Source of the DNA: Moraxellaceae bacterium
GTDB taxonomy: Bacteria > Pseudomonadota > Gammaproteobacteria > Pseudomonadales > Moraxellaceae
Length of the DNA stretch: 24,000 nucleotides
NCBI GenBank assembly: GCA_037189985.1
Contig: JBBCJX010000009.1
Coordinates: 1 to 24,000 of the forward strand
Reading direction: 5' to 3'
Notes under the pieces: model-generated
What the model was told of the DNA's origin: nothing
The model's database searches: none
Seen by the model: the letters and a program-made list of their open reading frames with translations, nothing else
Shown: in pieces, positions 1,621-6,526 of the stretch
Layout: each line of letters begins with the position of its first letter
How positions within the stretch are numbered: the stretch's first letter is position 1
Translations under genes and position numbers: made by a program

Positions 1621-2247
1621 TTAACCTCTGTTGACCAAGGCGGCCATGAGGCGGTCGTGGTGGACGTAAATGGGGCGTCCAGTGGTCTTTTCTTTCTCGA
1701 TCCACCACTCCAGTACTTCACGCAGGCCAAGCGTGGCAGGCGAGTGGGCGGCTGCCGGTGCTGGTGATTGGTTAACCGGGCTCTTCTCCGGCAGGGCGGC
1801 GAGCCCATCCAGTACGCGCTGCCGGAGCTCCTGGGTCTTCTTGCCGCCAGATCCCTTCAGTGCGCCCGATGCGTAAGCTGTGCAAATGCCATTCTCTATG
1901 CACCACTTATTCATGGTGGTCCCTTTCTTCTTGAATTCTTCCTTCACGGCGGTCCGGATATCGCGTGTGGCCGATATCGCGGGCTTCGGTTTGTCTTCTT
2001 TTTGGGGGGCGGGCTCCGGCTTCATTTTCTTTTCGGCTTGCTTGTCGAGCTCGTTGCGGCGCTCGGCATCACGTTGTGGATTGATGCTGAAGTCCTTGAA
2101 GTTGGCCGTGTCGCCTGTGGCGCCAGCGCCGACGGCCTGTATCTTTCCGCCGCGCTGTAGGAAGCGCTCCATGTCGGCTTCCAGCTGCTCGCGGTAGCTT
2201 CTCTTCTGCTCGATGACGGCGCTGTTGATGATGGATGTTTCGGTCAT
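1621..2247 (-). CDS. Hypothetical protein with a possible Ner-like HTH segment
   Basis: ORF 1621..2268. The internal ATG at 2247 has a GAGG 5 nt upstream and clears the upstream stop codon (2255-2257). The central Lys/Glu/Pro-rich linker is followed by IRTAVKEEFKKKGTTMNKWCIENGICTAYASGALKG, which resembles Ner/Nlp-type HTH. Confidence 0.45.
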   Translation of the reverse strand: MTETSIINSAVIEQKRSYREQLEADMERFLQRGGKIQAVGAGATGDTANFKDFSINPQRDAERRNELDKQAEKKMKPEPAPQKEDKPKPAISATRDIRTAVKEEFKKKGTTMNKWCIENGICTAYASGALKGSGGKKTQELRQRVLDGLAALPEKSPVNQSPAPAAAHSPATLGLREVLEWWIEKEKTTGRPIYVHHDRLMAALVNRG

Positions 2248-2254
2248 GATGGCC

Positions 2255-2524
2255 TCAGTTCTTGTCATAAACGGATTTGAGCCAGCTGGAGTACTCGCCC
2301 ATGTTGCTGATCAATATGAGGCGGCTGTCGTCGCACCCGCGTAAGCGGGAGGCGTCATCGCAGTCTGTGCATGCGTTTATGTACTCATGCAGGCTGGCGA
2401 TAGCCGCATCCAGTTTTTTGGCAGTGGCAAGTCCGGCTTGCACGCGCTTTGCTTTGTTGCGGGCTTCTCTTTTCCGCTGGGTGTCGCTCTTGAAGTCGTC
2501 GCCCGACATTGATTGCTGAATCAT
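2255..2524 (-). CDS. Hypothetical 89-aa protein, start codon abuts the RT stop (TAAATG)
   Basis: The ORF start (ATG, 2524-2522) immediately follows the RT stop TAA (2527-2525). The N-terminus is basic (KREARNKAKR) and Cys residues are present (CTDCDD..C). I recognise no family. Confidence 0.5.
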   Translation of the reverse strand: MIQQSMSGDDFKSDTQRKREARNKAKRVQAGLATAKKLDAAIASLHEYINACTDCDDASRLRGCDDSRLILISNMGEYSSWLKSVYDKN

Positions 2525-3706
2525 TTATTTTCCCGCCCCATAGATTTTGGTCAGATGGTGATTCACGGCACGGCCGCGCTGCAGGATGGCTTTGGAAACC
2601 TTCGCGCGGTCCTGCTGGCTATGGGTGGCTTGCCCGATCAGGCCGAGGTAGCTGTTGGCCACGGCCGTCAGATCCTCGCGTGGTGTTGTGCGCATGGCGG
2701 CCACGGCATGGTTCACTGTCCGGCGGCGGGTGGTGCGGTGCCATGGCTTGATGACCTGGCCCACAAAGTCCACACCACGCGACACGGGCTGCAGGATCGT
2801 CTTCTTGGGATTGAGCTCAAGGGCGAGGCGTGCCGGCAGGAAGGCCTCTATCTCGGCCAGCCATGCACGCAACTGCTGCGGTGATTCGTGCACCAGAACA
2901 AAGTCATCCACATAGCGCACGTAATGCCGGCAGCCAAGACGGTGCTTAACAAACTGGTCCAGCTCATTCATGGTGACGTTGGCGCCGGATTGGCTGGGCA
3001 GGTTTCCTATGGGAAAGCCCTTGTTGCTGGGCTGGCTGGCCAGCCGCTTGTGTGCCGGCACGCGCTCGATCAGTCGTGGATCGCCCCGGTATTCAAAGTC
3101 CTGACGCGGGTCATGGAAGTAGATCGTGTGCGCGAGCCAGCGCCACCATGGCTCAGGAATGCCGGGGGCCAGCAGGCTCCAGAAAATGTCCTTGTCCAGA
3201 GAGACAAAGAAGTTGGCAATGTCGCATTTCAGGTAATAACACGGCCGTGACCAGTTCTGTGATGCGCTCCGGATGTGGTGTTCAAGGCGCTTGGCGCCGT
3301 AGAGGGTCCCTCTTCCTGGAATGCAGGCGCAGCTGTCGGCAATGAAGCGACGCATGAAGCGGTCGGAAATGTGATTGTGCAGTAGCCAGTGCACGATGCG
3401 GTCACGGAAAGGGGCAGCCCATACCTCGCGCGGCTTCGGCCGCGTGATGACAAAGCAGATGCTGCGGCCGGGCTGGTAGGTCTGGCTGCGGAGCTCGTCA
3501 CGTAGCTTGATCAGCTCGCGCTCGTAGTTGAGCTCAAAGGCAAAGGCGCTGGCGGTATTGCGCTTGGTCCGGCTGCAGTCGCGATAGGCGCGCAACAGAT
3601 CGGAGAATAAAAAATCAGCATGGGCCTCGGGGAGGGCATCCGTAAAATCTGCGGACGGCCACTGCACGACGCTTGTTGTCCTTGTTGTTGATGTTGCTGT
3701 TGCCAT
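2525..3706 (-). CDS. DGR-type reverse transcriptase (RNA-directed DNA polymerase)
   Basis: Has the catalytic YVDDFVLV (YxDD) box. The preceding FPIGNLPSQSGANV matches the [ILV]GxxxSQ motif characteristic of DGR RTs (Bordetella phage BPP-1 Brt has IGSLTSQ). The N-terminal FSDLLRAYRDCSRTKR aligns with Brt WENLLDAYRKTSHGKR. The start is uncertain. The ORF opens at GTG 3766. ATG 3706 has AGGA 8 nt upstream. GTG 3667 would give an N-terminus of Brt-like length. All three candidates lie inside or beyond the TR. Confidence 0.92.
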   Translation of the reverse strand: MATATSTTRTTSVVQWPSADFTDALPEAHADFLFSDLLRAYRDCSRTKRNTASAFAFELNYERELIKLRDELRSQTYQPGRSICFVITRPKPREVWAAPFRDRIVHWLLHNHISDRFMRRFIADSCACIPGRGTLYGAKRLEHHIRSASQNWSRPCYYLKCDIANFFVSLDKDIFWSLLAPGIPEPWWRWLAHTIYFHDPRQDFEYRGDPRLIERVPAHKRLASQPSNKGFPIGNLPSQSGANVTMNELDQFVKHRLGCRHYVRYVDDFVLVHESPQQLRAWLAEIEAFLPARLALELNPKKTILQPVSRGVDFVGQVIKPWHRTTRRRTVNHAVAAMRTTPREDLTAVANSYLGLIGQATHSQQDRAKVSKAILQRGRAVNHHLTKIYGAGK

Positions 3707-3748
3707 ACTCGAAGTCCTGAACGTAGACGTTGTTGGCGTCGTTCTGGG
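3650..3748 (-). repeat. DGR template repeat (TR), 99-bp core
   Basis: Aligns without gaps to 4409..4507 and 4996..5094. At every variable position but one, this copy carries A on the minus strand. In the VR reading frame it reads QNDANNVYVQDFEYGNSNINNKDNKRRAVAVR and contains eight AAC codons. Confidence 0.92.
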
Positions 3749-3902
3749 CCGTGTCATGCTATCCACGTCGCCCGGTCGAATCCTCGGCCGGAAAACTGCG
3801 CGAGACCTGCCGGCATGCGCTGGCGGTTTCTCTGATGCGCCTGGCGGTGGCGGCAGTACTGCGCCGCCAGCGGCATAACCAGATTCAGAATACGCACGGC
3901 AG

Positions 3903-4319
3903 TCAAAGCCTTAACTCTGACTGGACTGGCGAGGTTGCGGCTTGGGTGGCCCCGGTATCGCTAAGTGCGCTACTTACACTGCCGTTTTTCCAGCCGCCTG
4001 CTTGGGCGCCGATGGAATCAAGTGTCTCGATGGCTCTGGCGTGGTGCGTGATCGCAATGACTCGTGCGCGTGCCAGTGACCGAAACTGGAAAATCAGGAC
4101 GTCCAGGCTCTCCAAGAGATCGTCAATGCGATCTGCCCGGATGGTTCCTTGGGCCATGTTGGCGCGGCGGATGAGCAGCCCGAGCTTGGAGGCTCGGTCC
4201 AGCATCAGCGGCCCCATCGTGGCTCTGGTGGTCTTCGGAACCTGGCTCATTATCGTGATTGTCTGATCCACCAGCGTTTCAGCCGCGCGGTAAATGGGTA
4301 AATCGGAATGCAGGCTCAT
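3903..4319 (-). CDS. avd: Accessory variability determinant (Avd)-like four-helix-bundle protein
   Basis: 138 aa, located between the target genes and the TR as in canonical DGRs. Helical, basic sequence: ETLVDQTITIMSQVPKTTRATMGPLMLDRASKLGLLIRRAN ... LDVLIFQFRSLARARVI ... IETLDSIGAQAGGWKN. This resembles Avd / 23S-rRNA-IVS-family proteins. The call rests on position and pattern, not on a search. Confidence 0.75.
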   Translation of the reverse strand: MSLHSDLPIYRAAETLVDQTITIMSQVPKTTRATMGPLMLDRASKLGLLIRRANMAQGTIRADRIDDLLESLDVLIFQFRSLARARVIAITHHARAIETLDSIGAQAGGWKNGSVSSALSDTGATQAATSPVQSELRL

Positions 4320-4345
4320 GCTGATAAAACCAAAAATTCAAAAAC

Positions 4346-4364
4346 GAGGGCGCATAGCGCCCTC
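4346..4364 (-). promoter_or_regulatory. GC-rich hairpin downstream of VR1 (8-bp stem gagggcgc/gcgccctc, 3-nt loop); candidate DGR target-recognition hairpin and/or intrinsic terminator
   Basis: Perfect inverted repeat, read directly. On the minus strand it is followed by a T-rich tract (gtttttgaatttttggtttt). A paralogous hairpin sits at the same relative position after VR2. Confidence 0.6.
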
Positions 4365-4379
4365 ACAGCAGGTTAAGGA

Positions 4380-4904
4380 TTAAAGGACTGAAGCACTCAG
4401 CTGAATCGTGCGGACGGCCACTGCACGACGCTTGAAGCCCTTGCGGCTGATGCTGCTGTAGCCATACTCGAAGTCCTGAACGTGGACGTTGTAGGCGTCG
4501 TGCTGGGTGCTGGTCCAATACCAGCCCTCCGGGTTGAGCAGGTGCGGCACGTTGATCGACAGGATTTTCGATTCGTTGGTGGACGGCATGAACCAGTCGC
4601 GGTGGCCTTCGATATCCAAGGCGAGAATCTTTTTGCAGATATCGCTGCCGGCGGCGGCAAAGGCGATGGTGTTGGCCATGCCATTGTCCTTGCTGTCAGC
4701 GCCCTCGACCTTTTCGCCGTAGGTTCCGAATTCTTCTTTTTCGGGGTGGCCTGCCAGATCGGTGGCAATGATCAGTGCACGGAGGGGCTCGCCGGGCTTG
4801 CCGCCGATGATGCCGGCGAAGACGCCGCCTTGGCCGGGCCAGGCTTCGCCAATGTGTGGGGAAGAAAACGTGGTGGTGTGAAGCAGTGTGGCGGGTGCGT
4901 TCAT
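4380..4904 (-). CDS. DGR variable target protein 1 (DUF1566/Lcl-C-terminal-like C-type-lectin-fold candidate), 174 aa
   Basis: AGGAG lies 8 nt upstream of the ATG at 4904. The C-terminus contains VR1. The motifs DWFMPSTNE and WYWTSTQ, and the ending RRAVAVR, resemble DUF1566-type DGR targets. It is about 40% identical to the adjacent paralogue outside the VR. Confidence 0.85.
   Translation of the reverse strand: MNAPATLLHTTTFSSPHIGEAWPGQGGVFAGIIGGKPGEPLRALIIATDLAGHPEKEEFGTYGEKVEGADSKDNGMANTIAFAAAGSDICKKILALDIEGHRDWFMPSTNESKILSINVPHLLNPEGWYWTSTQHDAYNVHVQDFEYGYSSISRKGFKRRAVAVRTIQLSASVL
4409..4507 (-). repeat. DGR variable repeat VR1
   Basis: 11 mismatches to the TR. Ten are at TR adenines (TR + strand positions 3676, 3677, 3679, 3685, 3686, 3688, 3694, 3701, 3734, 3743). 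One is at a non-adenine (3725). It encodes QHDAYNVHVQDFEYGYSSISRKGFK. Confidence 0.9.
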
Positions 4905-4932
4905 GGTATTGCTCCTGAAAAATTTGCGCGCG

Positions 4933-4951
4933 AAGGGCGCTGCGCGCCCTT
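4933..4951 (-). promoter_or_regulatory. GC-rich hairpin downstream of VR2 (8-bp stem aagggcgc/gcgccctt, 3-nt loop)
   Basis: Perfect inverted repeat, read directly. It is paralogous to 4346..4364, and the sequence between hairpin and VR is also conserved between the two copies. Confidence 0.6.
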
Positions 4952-4975
4952 ACAACTGGTTAAGGATTGAAGGAC

Positions 4976-5488
4976 TCAAGCACTCAGCTGAATCTTGCGG
5001 ACGGCCACTGCACGACGCTTGAGGTCCTTGTCGTAGAGGCTGCTGCCGCCATACTCGAAGTCCTGAACGAAGACGTTGTCGGCGTCGTACTGGGTGCTGG
5101 TCAGGTAGTAGTAATCAAACTTGAAAAGCTGCGGCACGTTGATGGCCATTGCACGGGCATCATGGGCAGCAGGCAGGATCAGGTCTTTTTGCCCGGCAAT
5201 TTCCAGATCAAGAATCTGCTGGCAGATCTCGCTGCCGGCGGCGGCAAGGGCGATAGTGTTGGCGCGGCCGTCGTGCATGCTCGTGGCGGCCTCGACATCG
5301 ATGCCGTAGGTGCCGAGCTGGACGCCCTCGAAGTGCACGCGCGGATCATCGGGCAGGATAATGGCTTCGTAGGGACGGCCTTCCTGTCCTCCGGTGATGC
5401 CGCAGAAAATGCCGTGGTGCTCCGGCCAGACGATGCCGACGCGGGGCAGGTTGAGGGTGACGATGACGGGTGTGGCAGATGCATTCAT
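4976..5488 (-). CDS. DGR variable target protein 2 (paralogue of target 1), 170 aa
   Basis: The ORF track extends to 5722. The ATG at 5488 (MNASATP...) parallels the MNAPATL... start of the paralogue and has AGGAG upstream. The C-terminus contains VR2. Confidence 0.85.
   Translation of the reverse strand: MNASATPVIVTLNLPRVGIVWPEHHGIFCGITGGQEGRPYEAIILPDDPRVHFEGVQLGTYGIDVEAATSMHDGRANTIALAAAGSEICQQILDLEIAGQKDLILPAAHDARAMAINVPQLFKFDYYYLTSTQYDADNVFVQDFEYGGSSLYDKDLKRRAVAVRKIQLSA
4996..5094 (-). repeat. DGR variable repeat VR2
   Basis: 11 mismatches to the TR, all at TR adenines (3676, 3677, 3686, 3689, 3692, 3694, 3700, 3701, 3724, 3734, 3743). It encodes QYDADNVFVQDFEYGGSSLYDKDLK. Confidence 0.9.
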
Positions 5489-5514
5489 GGTGGTGCTCCT
5501 GGTTGTAGTCGGGG

Positions 5515-6516
5515 TTATTTGCCTGCGCAGGTACTGCAGAGGGATGGCTCGACCCAGTAGCAACCGCCTGCGCAGGCGCGATGCCACGTGCACCCGCAAA
5601 CCCTGCAGATGTCTTTCTCTGGATCGATGGGGGTTATTGAGGTGATGAGCAGCTGCAGGGCGTGACTGGTGATTGCGGTCACTTCCTCTGTGGTTGCGGG
5701 GCGGGGCTCGGCTGTTCCCCACTTTTCGCCTGCTGGCCAGAACACGCGAGCAGAGTCGCCATCAGGGGTGGGATATTTACGCATTAGCGTGATGGTGCCG
5801 ATGTCCGGAACCGACTCATGTATTTCGTTCGGTTCCTGGGCGTAGGTATCGCCGCTGATGTAGATCTCGGCAACTCCGCGCCTCAGCAAGGTATGGCTCG
5901 GTGCATCTTTGAAGTGGCAGTTCTCGCCCGGCTTGAGTGTCACGGCCATATAGGGATCGCCGAGCCCCTCCGTGAAGCGGTGATTCACAAGGCGGCCGCT
6001 GACGATGGTTGAGCTGAGGCCCCACTGCAGGTGGTCATGGATGGTGCTCACGTTGGCGAACGCATGGCGGCTGTCCCAGACGTGAAGTCTGGTTTCTCCC
6101 GGCAAATGCAGGCGCAGCATGCCGAACCCTTGCAGCGACCAACTGAACTTTCCCGCATTTTCCAGAATGAAGCGCACCAAGCTGCGCAGGCGGGGTAGGT
6201 CGGTTTCCGTCAGTGCTGCCATGTCATGTGCAACAGCTTTCTCCTGAATATCATCAAGGACATCCTCATTGATGATGCGCATGGGAATGTCTTCGCCGCC
6301 CTCGATCCAGTAGCCGCCGTCATGGTCATAGCGCTCACAGTGCAGTGGGCGTTCGTGCCATGGTTGAGTTGGCTCGCCACCCATTTCTGGAATGGTGTAG
6401 CTGTCAAACGGGCCGCCATAGGTGGGCACGAGGCCGAGCTCGGGATGCTCTATCACCATGAAAAAATCACGGCGGGTGATGGGGCACTTTTCGGGGTGAG
6501 TGTTGGTGATGGTCAT
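5515..6516 (-). CDS. Hypothetical protein with Cys-rich C-terminal module
   Basis: ORF 5515..6576. The ATG at 6516 has GAGGG 7 nt upstream and clears the upstream stop at 6527. The middle has a His-rich cupin-like pattern (LHVWDSRH...IHDHLQWGLSSTIVSG). The C-terminus is CRVCGCTWHRACAGGCYWVEPSLCSTC. Confidence 0.6.
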   Translation of the reverse strand: MTITNTHPEKCPITRRDFFMVIEHPELGLVPTYGGPFDSYTIPEMGGEPTQPWHERPLHCERYDHDGGYWIEGGEDIPMRIINEDVLDDIQEKAVAHDMAALTETDLPRLRSLVRFILENAGKFSWSLQGFGMLRLHLPGETRLHVWDSRHAFANVSTIHDHLQWGLSSTIVSGRLVNHRFTEGLGDPYMAVTLKPGENCHFKDAPSHTLLRRGVAEIYISGDTYAQEPNEIHESVPDIGTITLMRKYPTPDGDSARVFWPAGEKWGTAEPRPATTEEVTAITSHALQLLITSITPIDPEKDICRVCGCTWHRACAGGCYWVEPSLCSTCAGK

Positions 6517-6526
6517 GCCGGCGCCC

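What the first reader, a model, noticed from the sequence alone, without database searches (positions are those of the whole stretch)
2525..5488. Complete diversity-generating retroelement: RT, Avd, one TR and two VRs with adenine-specific mismatches
Three gap-free copies of a 99-bp repeat lie on the minus strand: 3650..3748 (TR), 4409..4507 (VR1) and 4996..5094 (VR2). By hand alignment VR1 has 11 mismatches to the TR and VR2 has 11. Of these 22, 21 fall where the 3650..3748 copy has A on the minus (transcribed) strand. Fourteen distinct TR adenines are hit, out of about 32 that I counted. In the VR reading frame the TR reads QNDANNVYVQDFEYGNSNINNKDNK with eight AAC codons, and changes are confined to codon positions 1 and 2. 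The 3' 24 nt (AAGCGTCGTGCAGTGGCCGTCCGC) are invariant in all three copies. Flanking genes are an RT with IGNLPSQ plus YVDD motifs and an Avd-like helical protein, in the canonical order target-avd-TR-RT. This is the hallmark of mutagenic retrohoming.
Basis: partly seen in the sequence, partly recalled or inferred. Interest (0 to 1): 0.9.

Follow-up and report, generated by a model that had tools for sequence, protein, structure and literature searches.

The report
Active prophage DGR with upstream primer RNA
This is a complete and recently active diversity-generating retroelement in a temperate phage, a well-known kind of system that rewrites the tips of two small lectin-fold proteins; the unusual part is that its helper RNA (the orphan Rfam motif RT-15) lies in front of the template instead of behind it.

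Summary
There are three gap-free 99-nt copies, with 11 + 11 mismatches, and 21 of the 22 fall at template adenines. All changes sit at codon positions 1 and 2, the TR has eight AAC codons, and the 3' 24 nt are invariant.

The interpretation as a DGR is supported:
- The RT is closest to the Bordetella phage DGR RT (E 8e-33) and has IGNLPSQ and YVDD.
- An Avd homologue lies in the canonical position.
- The targets are short DUF1566/C-type-lectin-fold proteins.

Two public contigs are identical to the window over 5.5 and 4.3 kb except for nine substitutions, all inside VR1. Eight of these are at TR-adenine positions, so the element has been active recently.

About 80 related loci, including isolated phages such as Burkholderia phage Magia, share the layout. 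This makes the window a new member of a known kind.

One thing goes beyond the finding. The structured RNA between avd and TR is Rfam RT-15, and no spacer RNA follows the TR. A conserved single-stranded box in RT-15 pairs with the TR 3' flank, with covariation. This mirrors the BPP-1 spacer primer duplex, which suggests a circularly permuted DGR RNA. That part is inferred, not shown.

The parts
4976..5488 (-). Target gene 2 (170 aa, ATG at 5488), a short DUF1566-type protein carrying VR2 at its C-terminus
   Evidence: ORF list. The public gene call for the identical sequence is 170 aa. It is 52% identical to target 1.
4996..5094 (-). VR2
   Evidence: 99-nt gap-free copy of the TR. All 11 mismatches are at TR adenines.
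4933..4995 (-). VR2 3' flank. It contains GATTCAG, complementary to the RT-15 box, then three phased 8-nt repeats (GCTTGAGT/CCTTCAAT/CCTTAACC) and a GC-rich hairpin at 4933-4951. Candidate IMH and target-recognition region.
   Evidence: (D4). The repeats are conserved after VRs across the clade and absent after TRs.
4380..4904 (-). Target gene 1 (174 aa), DUF1566/Lcl_C C-type-lectin-like fold, carrying VR1 at its C-terminus
   Evidence: Pfam Lcl_C 2.7e-5, below its cut-off. PHROG 4245 2.4e-24. AF2 model pLDDT 94.1. Best PDB match is the Legionella Lcl C-terminal domain 8q4e_A, E 3e-4, followed by weak matches (E > 0.3) to C-type lectin-like domains.
4409..4507 (-). VR1
   Evidence: 99-nt copy with 11 mismatches, 10 at TR adenines. 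All nine differences between the window and sibling contigs L087/L088 lie here.
4344..4408 (-). VR1 3' flank: GATTCAG, three phased 8-nt repeats, and a GC-rich hairpin at 4344-4366 followed by a T-run (terminator-like)
   Evidence: DNA fold, z = -2.85; terminator-like site.
3903..4319 (-). avd (accessory variability determinant, 138 aa)
   Evidence: Pfam bAvd 1e-6. NCBIfam DivGenRetAVD 8.9e-11. BLASTP 2e-22, 36% identity, to Magia 'Avd protein of DGR'.
3747..3934 (-). RT-15 RNA (Rfam RF03018). It is a structured RNA that fills the avd-TR interval and overlaps the last 30 nt of avd.
   Evidence: cmscan 147.4 bits against gathering score 82, full length 1-192. The same motif ends at the TR start in 13 of 13 related loci tested. 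RNAalifold on 50 sequences reproduces the structure, with 37 of 48 pairs keeping the pair after changes on both sides.
3893..3931 (-). P1 hairpin of RT-15 (10-bp stem plus loop). It is the positional counterpart of the Avd-binding stem-loop that precedes the primer strand in BPP-1.
   Evidence: cmscan alignment. Covarying pairs at columns 6-47 of A2. The analogy to BPP-1 rests on preprint 10.1101/2023.10.23.563531 and is an inference.
3879..3890 (-). Single-stranded box UUCUGAAUCUGG of RT-15. Proposed primer strand, with G3880 as the proposed priming nucleotide.
   Evidence: AUCUGGU (UUCUGGU in the L002 group) is present in 62 of 64 distinct loci. It pairs with the TR 3' flank with covariation.
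3873..3878 (-). 5' strand of the RT-15 outer helix (UUAUGC), starting 1 nt after the box. Proposed counterpart of the Sp strand of the BPP-1 'cPRT stop' duplex.
   Evidence: columns 64-68 pair with 217-221, with compensatory changes. The window itself carries A-U/U-A where the consensus has C-G/G-C.
3754..3759 (-). 3' strand of the outer helix (GCAUGA), 5 nt upstream of the TR 5' end
3650..3748 (-). TR (template repeat), 99 nt with 32 adenines
3645..3651 (-). TR 3' boundary CAGAUUU, complementary to the RT-15 box. Proposed template strand of the primer duplex, with G3652 as the predicted first templated base.
   Evidence: 79% of cells paired against 70.9% in shuffles (0 of 500 reach the observed value). 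Pair 7 is UA 21, CG 14, GC 13, GU 2, with none unpaired.
2525..3706 (-). DGR reverse transcriptase (393 aa from ATG 3706). Its first 57 nt overlap the TR.
   Evidence: Pfam RVT_1 5.6e-16. PDB 8ub7_A (bRT) 8e-33, with the alignment starting at ORF residue 54 = bRT residue 15. An ATG at TR position ~41-49 is the only in-frame start in 12 related loci. Length changes between the TR and the conserved N-terminus are mostly multiples of 3.

Best explanation
The region is a complete, functional diversity-generating retroelement carried by a lambda-like temperate prophage.

**Proposed mechanism.** The leftward early operon is transcribed through target2, target1, avd, RT-15 RNA, TR and RT. The RT, together with Avd, reverse-transcribes the 99-nt TR and misincorporates opposite adenines. 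The mutagenised cDNA replaces VR1 or VR2. This rewrites up to 14 or more codon positions (mostly AAC) at the C-terminal ligand-binding face of two small DUF1566/C-type-lectin-fold proteins.

**Shown here:**
- all of the parts are present;
- the mismatches are adenine-specific;
- natural near-identical copies differ only in VR1.

**Inferred by analogy with the Bordetella phage BPP-1 DGR.** cDNA synthesis would be cis-primed from the RT-15 RNA that lies 5' of the TR. The single-stranded box (…GAAUCUG, 3880-3886) would pair with the TR 3' boundary (CAGAUU, 3646-3651), placing G3880 as primer and G3652 as the first templated base. The RT-15 outer helix, whose 3' strand ends 5 nt before the TR, would act as the stop. 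On this reading the DGR RNA is a circular permutation of the BPP-1 RNA, with the 'spacer' module in front of the TR rather than behind it.

As noted for BPP-1, the primer strand matches the VR flanks better than the TR flank. In the window this is 9 nt with a one-base bulge for the VRs against 6 + G·U for the TR. This could give homing its direction.
For: **Repeats and adenine bias:**

**RT identity:** one search gives bRT 8e-33 against group II 3e-7 and retron-type 6e-4. The residues aligned with bRT D138, I181, G182, Q187 and D215/D216 are conserved in that alignment. RVT_1 is hit.

**Avd:**

**Target fold:**

**Activity:**, L087 and L088 are identical to the window over 5497 and 4301 nt except for 9 substitutions. 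All 9 are in VR1 and 8 are at TR-A positions. The ninth restores the TR base at the window's only non-A mismatch.

**Clade:**, about 80 related loci have a TR at the RT start plus 2-4 VRs, with mismatches almost exclusively at A.

**Prophage context:**

**RT-15:**
- Presence and position: 13 of 13 loci; annotated in phage Cruim01.
- Structure.
- Box to TR-flank pairing. The covariation score is 0.241 against 0.085 in shuffles (0 of 500 reach it). Slid controls give 0.03-0.10.
- No conserved structure downstream of the TR.
- The BPP-1 motif (Phage_DGR, RF03022) is absent from the window but is found in BPP-1 as a control.

**BPP-1 parallel:**, Sp47-56 pairs imperfectly with the TR but perfectly with the VR. 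Naorem 2017 (PMC5703328) had already noted this. In this clade, flank position 6 is paired in 100 of 108 VR flanks but only 17 of 52 TR flanks.
Against: - There is no experimental evidence on cDNA, priming site or homing for this clade.
- The primer duplex is short (5-10 bp) and its core is nearly invariant, so covariation rests mainly on positions 5-9. The sequences are related, so there may be only a few independent events.
- The Avd and Lcl_C HMM hits are below their curated cut-offs.
- The two sibling contigs may come from one sample, so they amount to one observed alternative VR1 state. VR2 shows no variation among the three copies.
- The hairpins after the VRs also look like ordinary terminators.
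- The function and location of the target proteins are unknown.
Confidence: 0.9

Rival explanations
1. It is a real DGR, but RT-15 is not the priming module. On this reading it is a cis-regulatory or RNP-assembly element, for example controlling RT translation or binding Avd/RT. Priming would occur elsewhere, either from an undetected element inside the RT coding region or by target-primed reverse transcription.
For: RT-15 lies just upstream of the RT start codon, which is a typical position for a leader. The core of the proposed primer duplex is nearly invariant and so uninformative. No biochemical data exist for this clade.
Against: - Position 7 of the duplex is paired in 50 of 50 distinct sequences with three Watson-Crick pair types, and further compensatory changes occur at positions 5, 6, 8 and 9.
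- The pairing partner lies about 230 nt away, exactly at the TR/VR homology boundary.
- The order of modules (hairpin, primer strand, 1-2 nt, long-range helix strand, protein-binding stem-loops) matches BPP-1 (preprint 10.1101/2023.10.23.563531).
- No conserved structure exists downstream of the TR.
Confidence: 0.25
2. It is a decayed or domesticated DGR. The TR/VR pattern would be a fossil of past activity, and the element no longer diversifies its targets.
For: VR2 is identical in all three available copies. One VR1 mismatch in the window is not at an adenine. At least one clade member (L076) shows mismatches without adenine bias.
Against: - Contigs that are otherwise 100% identical differ at nine VR1 positions, eight of them at TR adenines.
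- The RT ORF is intact and its catalytic residues are conserved.
- avd, RT-15 and the TR are all intact, and both VRs remain in frame.
Confidence: 0.05
3. It is not a DGR at all. The three repeats would be ordinary paralogous sequence (duplicated lectin-domain genes plus a pseudogene fragment), sitting next to an unrelated retron, Abi or group II RT.
For: Targets 1 and 2 are paralogues with 215 nt of extended similarity (D1). NCBIfam lists only group II, Drt and retron models for the RT, all far below their cut-offs.
Against: - The adenine bias has tails of 1e-6 and 3.5e-5.
- The RT is closest to bRT by 26 orders of magnitude in E-value.
- An Avd homologue is present.
- The same arrangement occurs in about 80 loci.
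- No group II or retron RNA matches in Rfam.
Confidence: 0.01

Closest known systems
Bordetella phage BPP-1 DGR (mtd-avd-TR-Sp-brt), the prototype
   Same: - The gene order is target-avd-TR-RT.
- The RT is homologous (E 8e-33).
- It has an Avd, adenine-specific TR-to-VR transfer, and a C-terminal VR in a C-type-lectin fold.
- A GC hairpin follows the VR.
- The primer-strand RNA is more complementary to the VR flank than to the TR flank (PMC5703328).
   Different: - BPP-1 has a 140-nt non-coding spacer RNA (Rfam Phage_DGR RF03022) between TR and brt. Here the TR overlaps the RT start, and the structured RNA (RT-15) lies between avd and the TR.
- The BPP-1 target is a tail-fibre protein in the structural module. 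Here there are two small stand-alone DUF1566 proteins in the early region next to int.
- The VR class is CLec2-like, not CLec1.
Burkholderia phage Magia DGR and relatives (Pseudomonas phages Cruim01, Haboob, SC_8_H2H8_2017; Shewanella phage vB_Sb_QDWS)
   Same: - The RTs are 59-61% identical.
- Magia has short lectin-fold targets, avd and RT in the early region near xis/int. Its genome announcement notes a potential DGR (PMC7883833).
- Cruim01 carries an RT-15 annotation in the same position.
   Different: These are different phages. No nucleotide-level similarity was found. The window's head genes are closest to P. aeruginosa temperate phages, at about 65% for TerL. None of these records interprets RT-15.
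Legionella pneumophila DGR / category 'd' (DUF1566, CLec2) targets of Wu et al. 2018 (PMC5758913)
   Same: The VR lies in a DUF1566/Lcl-type domain. About half of that category are short DUF1566-only proteins. The architecture is B1 (avd-TR-RT). About 13% of DGRs have two targets.
   Different: LdtA is a surface lipoprotein. The window's targets have no visible signal peptide or lipobox (by reading the sequence) and are phage-encoded.
Rfam RT-15 RNA (RF03018), from Weinberg et al. 2017 (PMC5737381)
   Same: The window matches over the full length at 147 bits, against a gathering score of 82.
   Different: The family has no assigned function. The paper ties only RT-10 to a DGR and speculates that other RT motifs may also serve DGRs. 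No paper in the searchable library names RT-15.

Membership tests
Diversity-generating retroelement (DGR) | Reverse transcriptase of the DGR clade (motif 4 [I/L]GxxxSQ, YxDD, closest to bRT) | tested here: met
   The ORF contains PIGNLPSQ and YVDD. The best PDB sequence match is bRT 8ub7_A at E 8e-33, against 3e-7 for group II and 6e-4 for a retron-type RT.
Diversity-generating retroelement (DGR) | A TR/VR repeat pair whose differences fall at TR adenines | tested here: met
   21 of 22 mismatches are at A, and A makes up 32 of 99 TR bases. Tails are 1.0e-6 and 3.5e-5.
Diversity-generating retroelement (DGR) | Accessory protein (Avd or HRDC) next to the TR/RT | tested here: met
   bAvd 1e-6 and DivGenRetAVD 8.9e-11, both below curated cut-offs. 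36% identity, E 2e-22, to Magia Avd. The position is canonical.
Diversity-generating retroelement (DGR) | VR at the C-terminus of a target protein with a variation-tolerant fold (C-type lectin or Ig) | tested here: met
   AF2 pLDDT 94. Foldseek finds the Lcl C-terminal domain at E 3e-4, then weak matches (E > 0.3) to C-type lectin-like domains, and phage DUF1566 proteins. Changes occur only at codon positions 1 and 2 of AAC-rich codons.
Diversity-generating retroelement (DGR) | VR-specific 3' element (IMH) that differs from the TR counterpart (IMH*), often followed by a hairpin | tested here: inconclusive
   The VR flanks share GATTCAG, three phased 8-nt repeats and a GC hairpin. The TR flank diverges right after CGCA. 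Function was not tested.
Diversity-generating retroelement (DGR) | Observed VR hypervariation among otherwise identical copies | tested here: met
   9 of 9 differences over 5.5 kb lie in VR1, and 8 are at TR-A positions. This is only one alternative state, and none was seen for VR2.
BPP-1-type DGR RNA (Rfam Phage_DGR RF03022, spacer between TR and RT) | A structured spacer RNA downstream of the TR that carries the priming adenosine | tested here: not met
   There is no RF03022 match in 3300-4400 even at E <= 1, while BPP-1 scores 104.7 bits as a control. The TR overlaps the RT ORF, and no conserved structure follows the TR.
Rfam RT-15 RNA (RF03018) | A covariance-model score above the gathering threshold, over the full length | tested here: met
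   147.4 bits against 82, model positions 1-192.
Retron | A retron-clade RT with an adjacent msr/msd RNA | tested here: not met
   The retron St85 RT model scores 33.5 bits against a cut-off of 235. No retron RNA family is matched.
Group II intron | An RT/maturase inside a ribozyme with domains I-VI | tested here: not met
   TIGR04416 scores 74 bits against a cut-off of 300. There is no group II intron match in Rfam.

The most novel reading that the evidence does not exclude
RT-15 would be the priming and RNP-scaffold RNA of a large clade of proteobacterial phage DGRs, and a circular permutation of the BPP-1 DGR RNA. The order here is Avd-binding-like hairpin, primer strand, stop-helix strand, protein-binding stem-loops and second stop-helix strand, all upstream of the TR. 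Only the primer-binding site lies downstream of the TR. The TR itself encodes the RT's start codon and first 19 residues. The rule that the primer RNA matches the VR flank better than the TR flank would hold in both architectures, which would make it a general basis for the direction of homing. The phased 8-nt repeats after every VR would be a new kind of IMH.
Probability: 0.55. Interest if true: 0.65.

Novelty: new member of a known kind. Interest (0 to 1): 0.45.

Why it matters
As a DGR this is one more example among tens of thousands, and relatives in isolated phages are already annotated. Three things give it value.

1. It comes with direct natural evidence of activity: copies that differ only in VR1. 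It would therefore be a sound choice for experiments.

2. It gives a function to an orphan Rfam family (RT-15). It also suggests that the RNA modules seen in the BPP-1 cryo-EM structure can be arranged in a different order around the template. This matters for DGR-based mutagenesis tools, which currently depend on the BPP-1 RNA. It may also explain some of the DGRs that lacked the downstream elements in the published survey.

3. The targets are small stand-alone lectin-fold proteins, encoded in the early/lysogeny region rather than on tail fibres. What a temperate phage gains by diversifying them is an open question.

Tried and rejected
- **Nucleotide search of phages.** A megablast of 2300-6600 against the phage collection found nothing.
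- **Exact-pattern scans.** Scans for the window's RT-15/TR junction in metagenome and IMG/VR contigs found nothing. The only near-identical copies came from exact look-ups of the Avd and ParB-like proteins.
- **NCBIfam.** It has no DGR-RT model. The RT hits only group II, Drt and retron models, far below their cut-offs, which is uninformative.
- **PDB sequence searches.** Searches with Avd and target 1 found nothing useful. The fold was established by structure prediction instead.
- **Box pairs only with the VR flanks.** I first thought the RT-15 box paired with the VR flanks alone, as pure RNA-guided targeting. The TR flank turned out to pair too, with better covariation at position 7 (52 of 52, against 80 of 108 for VRs). 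I therefore adopted the cis-priming reading and kept the better VR match as a secondary feature. The same feature had already been described for BPP-1 (PMC5703328).
- **Repeat period.** I first read the repeats after the VRs as 9-nt units. The count shows a period of 8.
- **Spacer-like structure downstream of the TR.** I looked for a conserved structure there and found none.
- **Host.** I could not identify the host. The closest RTs are in Beta- and Gammaproteobacteria, and the closest terminases are in P. aeruginosa phages.
- **One preprint.** A 2026 preprint listed by the search could not be opened.

Full report
**1. Observation**

All lie on the minus strand.

- VR1 has 11 mismatches to the 3650-3748 copy, 10 where that copy has A and one where it has T (position 24). 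VR2 has 11, all at A.
- The template has 32 A in 99 nt, and 14 distinct adenines are hit.
- The hypergeometric tails are 3.5e-5 and 1.0e-6.
- In the target frame the template reads QNDANNVYVQDFEYGNSNINNKDNKRRAVAVR with eight AAC codons. All 22 changes are at codon positions 1 or 2.
- The invariant 24-nt 3' block occurs three times, against none expected.

**2. The parts**

*RT.* The ORF 2525-3766 matches RVT_1. Its best solved relative by far is the Bordetella phage DGR RT (8ub7_A, E 8e-33). The group II maturase scores 3e-7 and a retron-type RT 6e-4. In that alignment IGNLPSQ lines up with bRT I181-Q187, and YVDD with the catalytic D215/D216.

*Avd.* The 138-aa protein at 3903-4319 hits bAvd and NCBIfam DivGenRetAVD, both below their curated cut-offs. 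It is 36% identical (E 2e-22) to the protein annotated as 'Avd protein of DGR' in Burkholderia phage Magia.

*Targets.* Target 1 (174 aa) and target 2 (170 aa) are paralogues, 52% identical. They belong to a family of 160-220-aa proteins that sources name 'DUF1566 domain-containing'.
- An AlphaFold model of target 1 has pLDDT 94.
- It matches the Legionella Lcl C-terminal domain at E 3e-4, then C-type lectin-like domains only weakly, at E > 0.3.
- It also matches phage DUF1566 proteins, some of which form the C-terminal tips of tail-fibre-like proteins.
- This places the targets in category 'd' (CLec2) of Wu et al. 2018. In that category about half of the targets are short DUF1566-only proteins. 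About 13% of DGRs have two targets, and the cassette architecture is B1 (PMC5758913).

**3. Context**

The window is a lambda-like temperate prophage. It carries:
- an integrase at 168-1409;
- a ParB-like protein at 7751-9787;
- a CI-like repressor at 13111-13791;
- an O-like replication protein;
- a large terminase, a portal and a protease-capsid fusion.

The DGR lies in the leftward early region next to the integrase, not among tail genes.

**4. Activity**

An exact look-up of the Avd protein found two public contigs: GCA_037189345.1 JBBCKJ010054150.1 and a Logan assembly of SRR27999909. They are identical to the window over 5497 and 4301 nt except for nine substitutions, and all nine lie inside VR1.
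- Eight fall at TR-adenine positions (43, 48, 49, 54, 57, 63, 70, 73).
- The ninth is position 24. There the window carries its only non-adenine mismatch, and the siblings carry the TR base.
- VR2 and everything else are unchanged.

This is the signature of at least one recent round of mutagenic homing into VR1. One caveat applies: the two contigs may come from the same sample, so this is one alternative state.

**5. The clade**

Scans with the RT found 27 genome loci and 59 IMG/VR loci with 50-68% identical RTs (one at 42%). The genome loci are mostly Burkholderiales and other Betaproteobacteria, with some Gammaproteobacteria.
- My blastn survey shows that almost all of them have a TR at the RT start and two to four VRs, with mismatches almost exclusively at A.
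- Isolated phages carry the same RT type at 57-61% identity. Examples are Burkholderia phage Magia, Pseudomonas phages Cruim01, Haboob and SC_8_H2H8_2017, and Shewanella phage vB_Sb_QDWS.
- The Magia genome announcement already notes a potential DGR with short targets (PMC7883833).

The window is therefore a new member of a known and populous kind.

**6.

The 155 nt between avd and the TR are not a plain spacer. Rfam's RT-15 RNA (RF03018) matches 3747-3934 over its full length at 147 bits, against a gathering score of 82.
- It is full-length in 13 of 13 related loci tested, and its 3' end always falls at the TR 5' end.
- Phage Cruim01 carries the same annotation in the same place.
- RNAalifold on 50 distinct sequences reproduces the Rfam architecture independently. 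In 37 of 48 pairs, at least one sequence keeps the pair after changes on both sides.
- Weinberg et al. 2017 tied only RT-10 to a DGR. That motif is the BPP-1 spacer, now named Phage_DGR RF03022 in Rfam, and it was found in BPP-1 as a control. The authors speculated that other RT motifs might serve DGRs too (PMC5737381).
- No paper in the searchable library names RT-15.
- The BPP-1 motif is absent from the window.
- There is no room for a spacer here. The RT frame is open through the TR. In 12 related loci the only in-frame start codon is an ATG at TR position ~41-49, which corresponds to ATG 3706 in the window.
- Length variation between the TR and the conserved RT N-terminus is mostly in multiples of three, and no conserved RNA structure is predicted there.

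**7. How RT-15 may work (inference)**

RT-15 has a conserved single-stranded box. In the window it is UUCUGAAUCUGG (3879-3890). AUCUGGU, or UUCUGGU in the L002 group, is present in 62 of 64 distinct loci. The box is complementary to the TR 3' boundary CAGAU(C/U)N…, which begins exactly where TR/VR homology ends.

I tested the pairing on 50 distinct box+flank combinations:
- 79% of cells are paired, against 70.9% in shuffles. None of 500 shuffles reaches the observed value.
- The covariation score is 0.241, against 0.085 in shuffles (0 of 500). Slid controls give 0.03-0.10.
- Pair 7 is never unpaired and uses U-A (21), C-G (14), G-C (13) and G·U (2).

In BPP-1 the active site holds a duplex between TR117-129 and Sp47-56. 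A56 is the primer and G117 the first templated base. Two nucleotides later, the Sp strand forms the 'cPRT stop' duplex with the sequence just upstream of the TR. An Avd-binding stem-loop precedes the primer strand (preprint 10.1101/2023.10.23.563531).

RT-15 has the same order of modules:
- the P1 hairpin;
- the box;
- one nucleotide;
- the 5' strand of a long-range helix;
- several stem-loops;
- the 3' strand of that helix, 5 nt before the TR.

The simplest reading is a circular permutation of the BPP-1 RNA, with the whole 'spacer' module placed 5' of the TR. It predicts G3880 as the primer and G3652 as the first templated base.

A second parallel supports this reading. In BPP-1, Sp47-56 pairs imperfectly with the TR (IMH*) but perfectly with the VR (IMH). 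I recomputed this, and Naorem et al. 2017 noted it first (PMC5703328). In this clade, flank position 6 is mismatched in about two thirds of TRs but paired in 100 of 108 VR flanks. In the window the VR flanks match nine box nucleotides with a one-base bulge, while the TR flank matches six plus a G·U pair.

**8. VR-side elements**

Each VR is followed by three phased 8-nt repeats. In the window they read GCTTGAGT/CCTTCAAT/CCTTAACC. The clade consensus is …ATTTAAtCATTnAtCnATTT, and the spacing is 8 in 136 of 176 successive motif pairs. The repeats straddle the stop codon and are absent after TRs.

In the window a GC-rich hairpin follows the repeats (4344-4366 and 4933-4951). The first of these also fits an intrinsic terminator. 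BPP-1 has a comparable GC hairpin after its VR. These elements are candidates for IMH and target recognition. Their function is untested.

**9. Verdict**

The finding is real and the DGR interpretation is right. As a DGR it is a new member of a known kind. The added value has three parts:
- natural evidence of activity;
- the assignment of RT-15 to a DGR clade, with a testable permuted-RNA priming model;
- the unusual placement of small stand-alone lectin-fold targets in the early region of a temperate phage.

Noticed in passing
window 4370-4395 and 4957-4982 (minus strand); VR flanks of L001-L086: Three (sometimes four) phased 8-nt repeats ([AC]TT[TCG]A every 8 nt) follow every VR in the clade. 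They straddle the target stop codon and are absent after TRs (124 distinct flanks).
   Followed up: partly
window 5515-6576 (-): This 353-aa ORF (333 aa by the public gene call) lies just upstream of target 2. It has no Pfam, PHROG or NCBIfam hit and a Cys-rich C-terminus, CRVCGCTWHRACAGGCYWVEPSLCSTCAGK.
   Followed up: no
window 1621-2268 (-): This 215-aa protein has a SutA RNAP-binding domain hit (PF20661, 1.6e-10) and a weak BcepMu gp16 hit. It may be a phage-encoded RNA-polymerase-binding factor.
   Followed up: no
window 2255-2524 (-): An 89-aa ORF starts at the RT stop codon (ATGA overlap) and has no family hit. Magia also has a small unknown gene right after its RT.
   Followed up: no
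L076 (IMGVR_UViG_2834269220_000008): TR/VR mismatches here show little adenine bias (7 of 22 and 14 of 28 at A), and the RT-15 box is missing. This may be a decayed member of the clade.
   Followed up: no
L012, L009, L031, L075, L054 and others: Some clade members have three or four VRs, including remote ones 3-7 kb from the TR. The two targets in the window are therefore the minimal common set, not the maximum.
   Followed up: partly
L032 vs L033: These two IMG/VR contigs are 96% identical over 4.7 kb, and 35 of their 182 differences fall in the 210 nt of VRs. That is about a five-fold enrichment, consistent with ongoing diversification elsewhere in the clade.
   Followed up: partly
window 7751-9787 (-) and 6799-7209 (-): A 678-aa ParB-N-like protein (PHROG 7783) and an ASCH-domain protein lie in the same leftward operon as the DGR.
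   Followed up: no
L093 (BPP-1) 2743-3020 and 3443-3576: Recomputed on the reference genome, Sp47-56 forms 9 Watson-Crick pairs plus 1 wobble with VR118-127, but only 6 plus 1 wobble plus 3 mismatches with TR118-127. This agrees with Naorem et al. 2017.
   Followed up: yes
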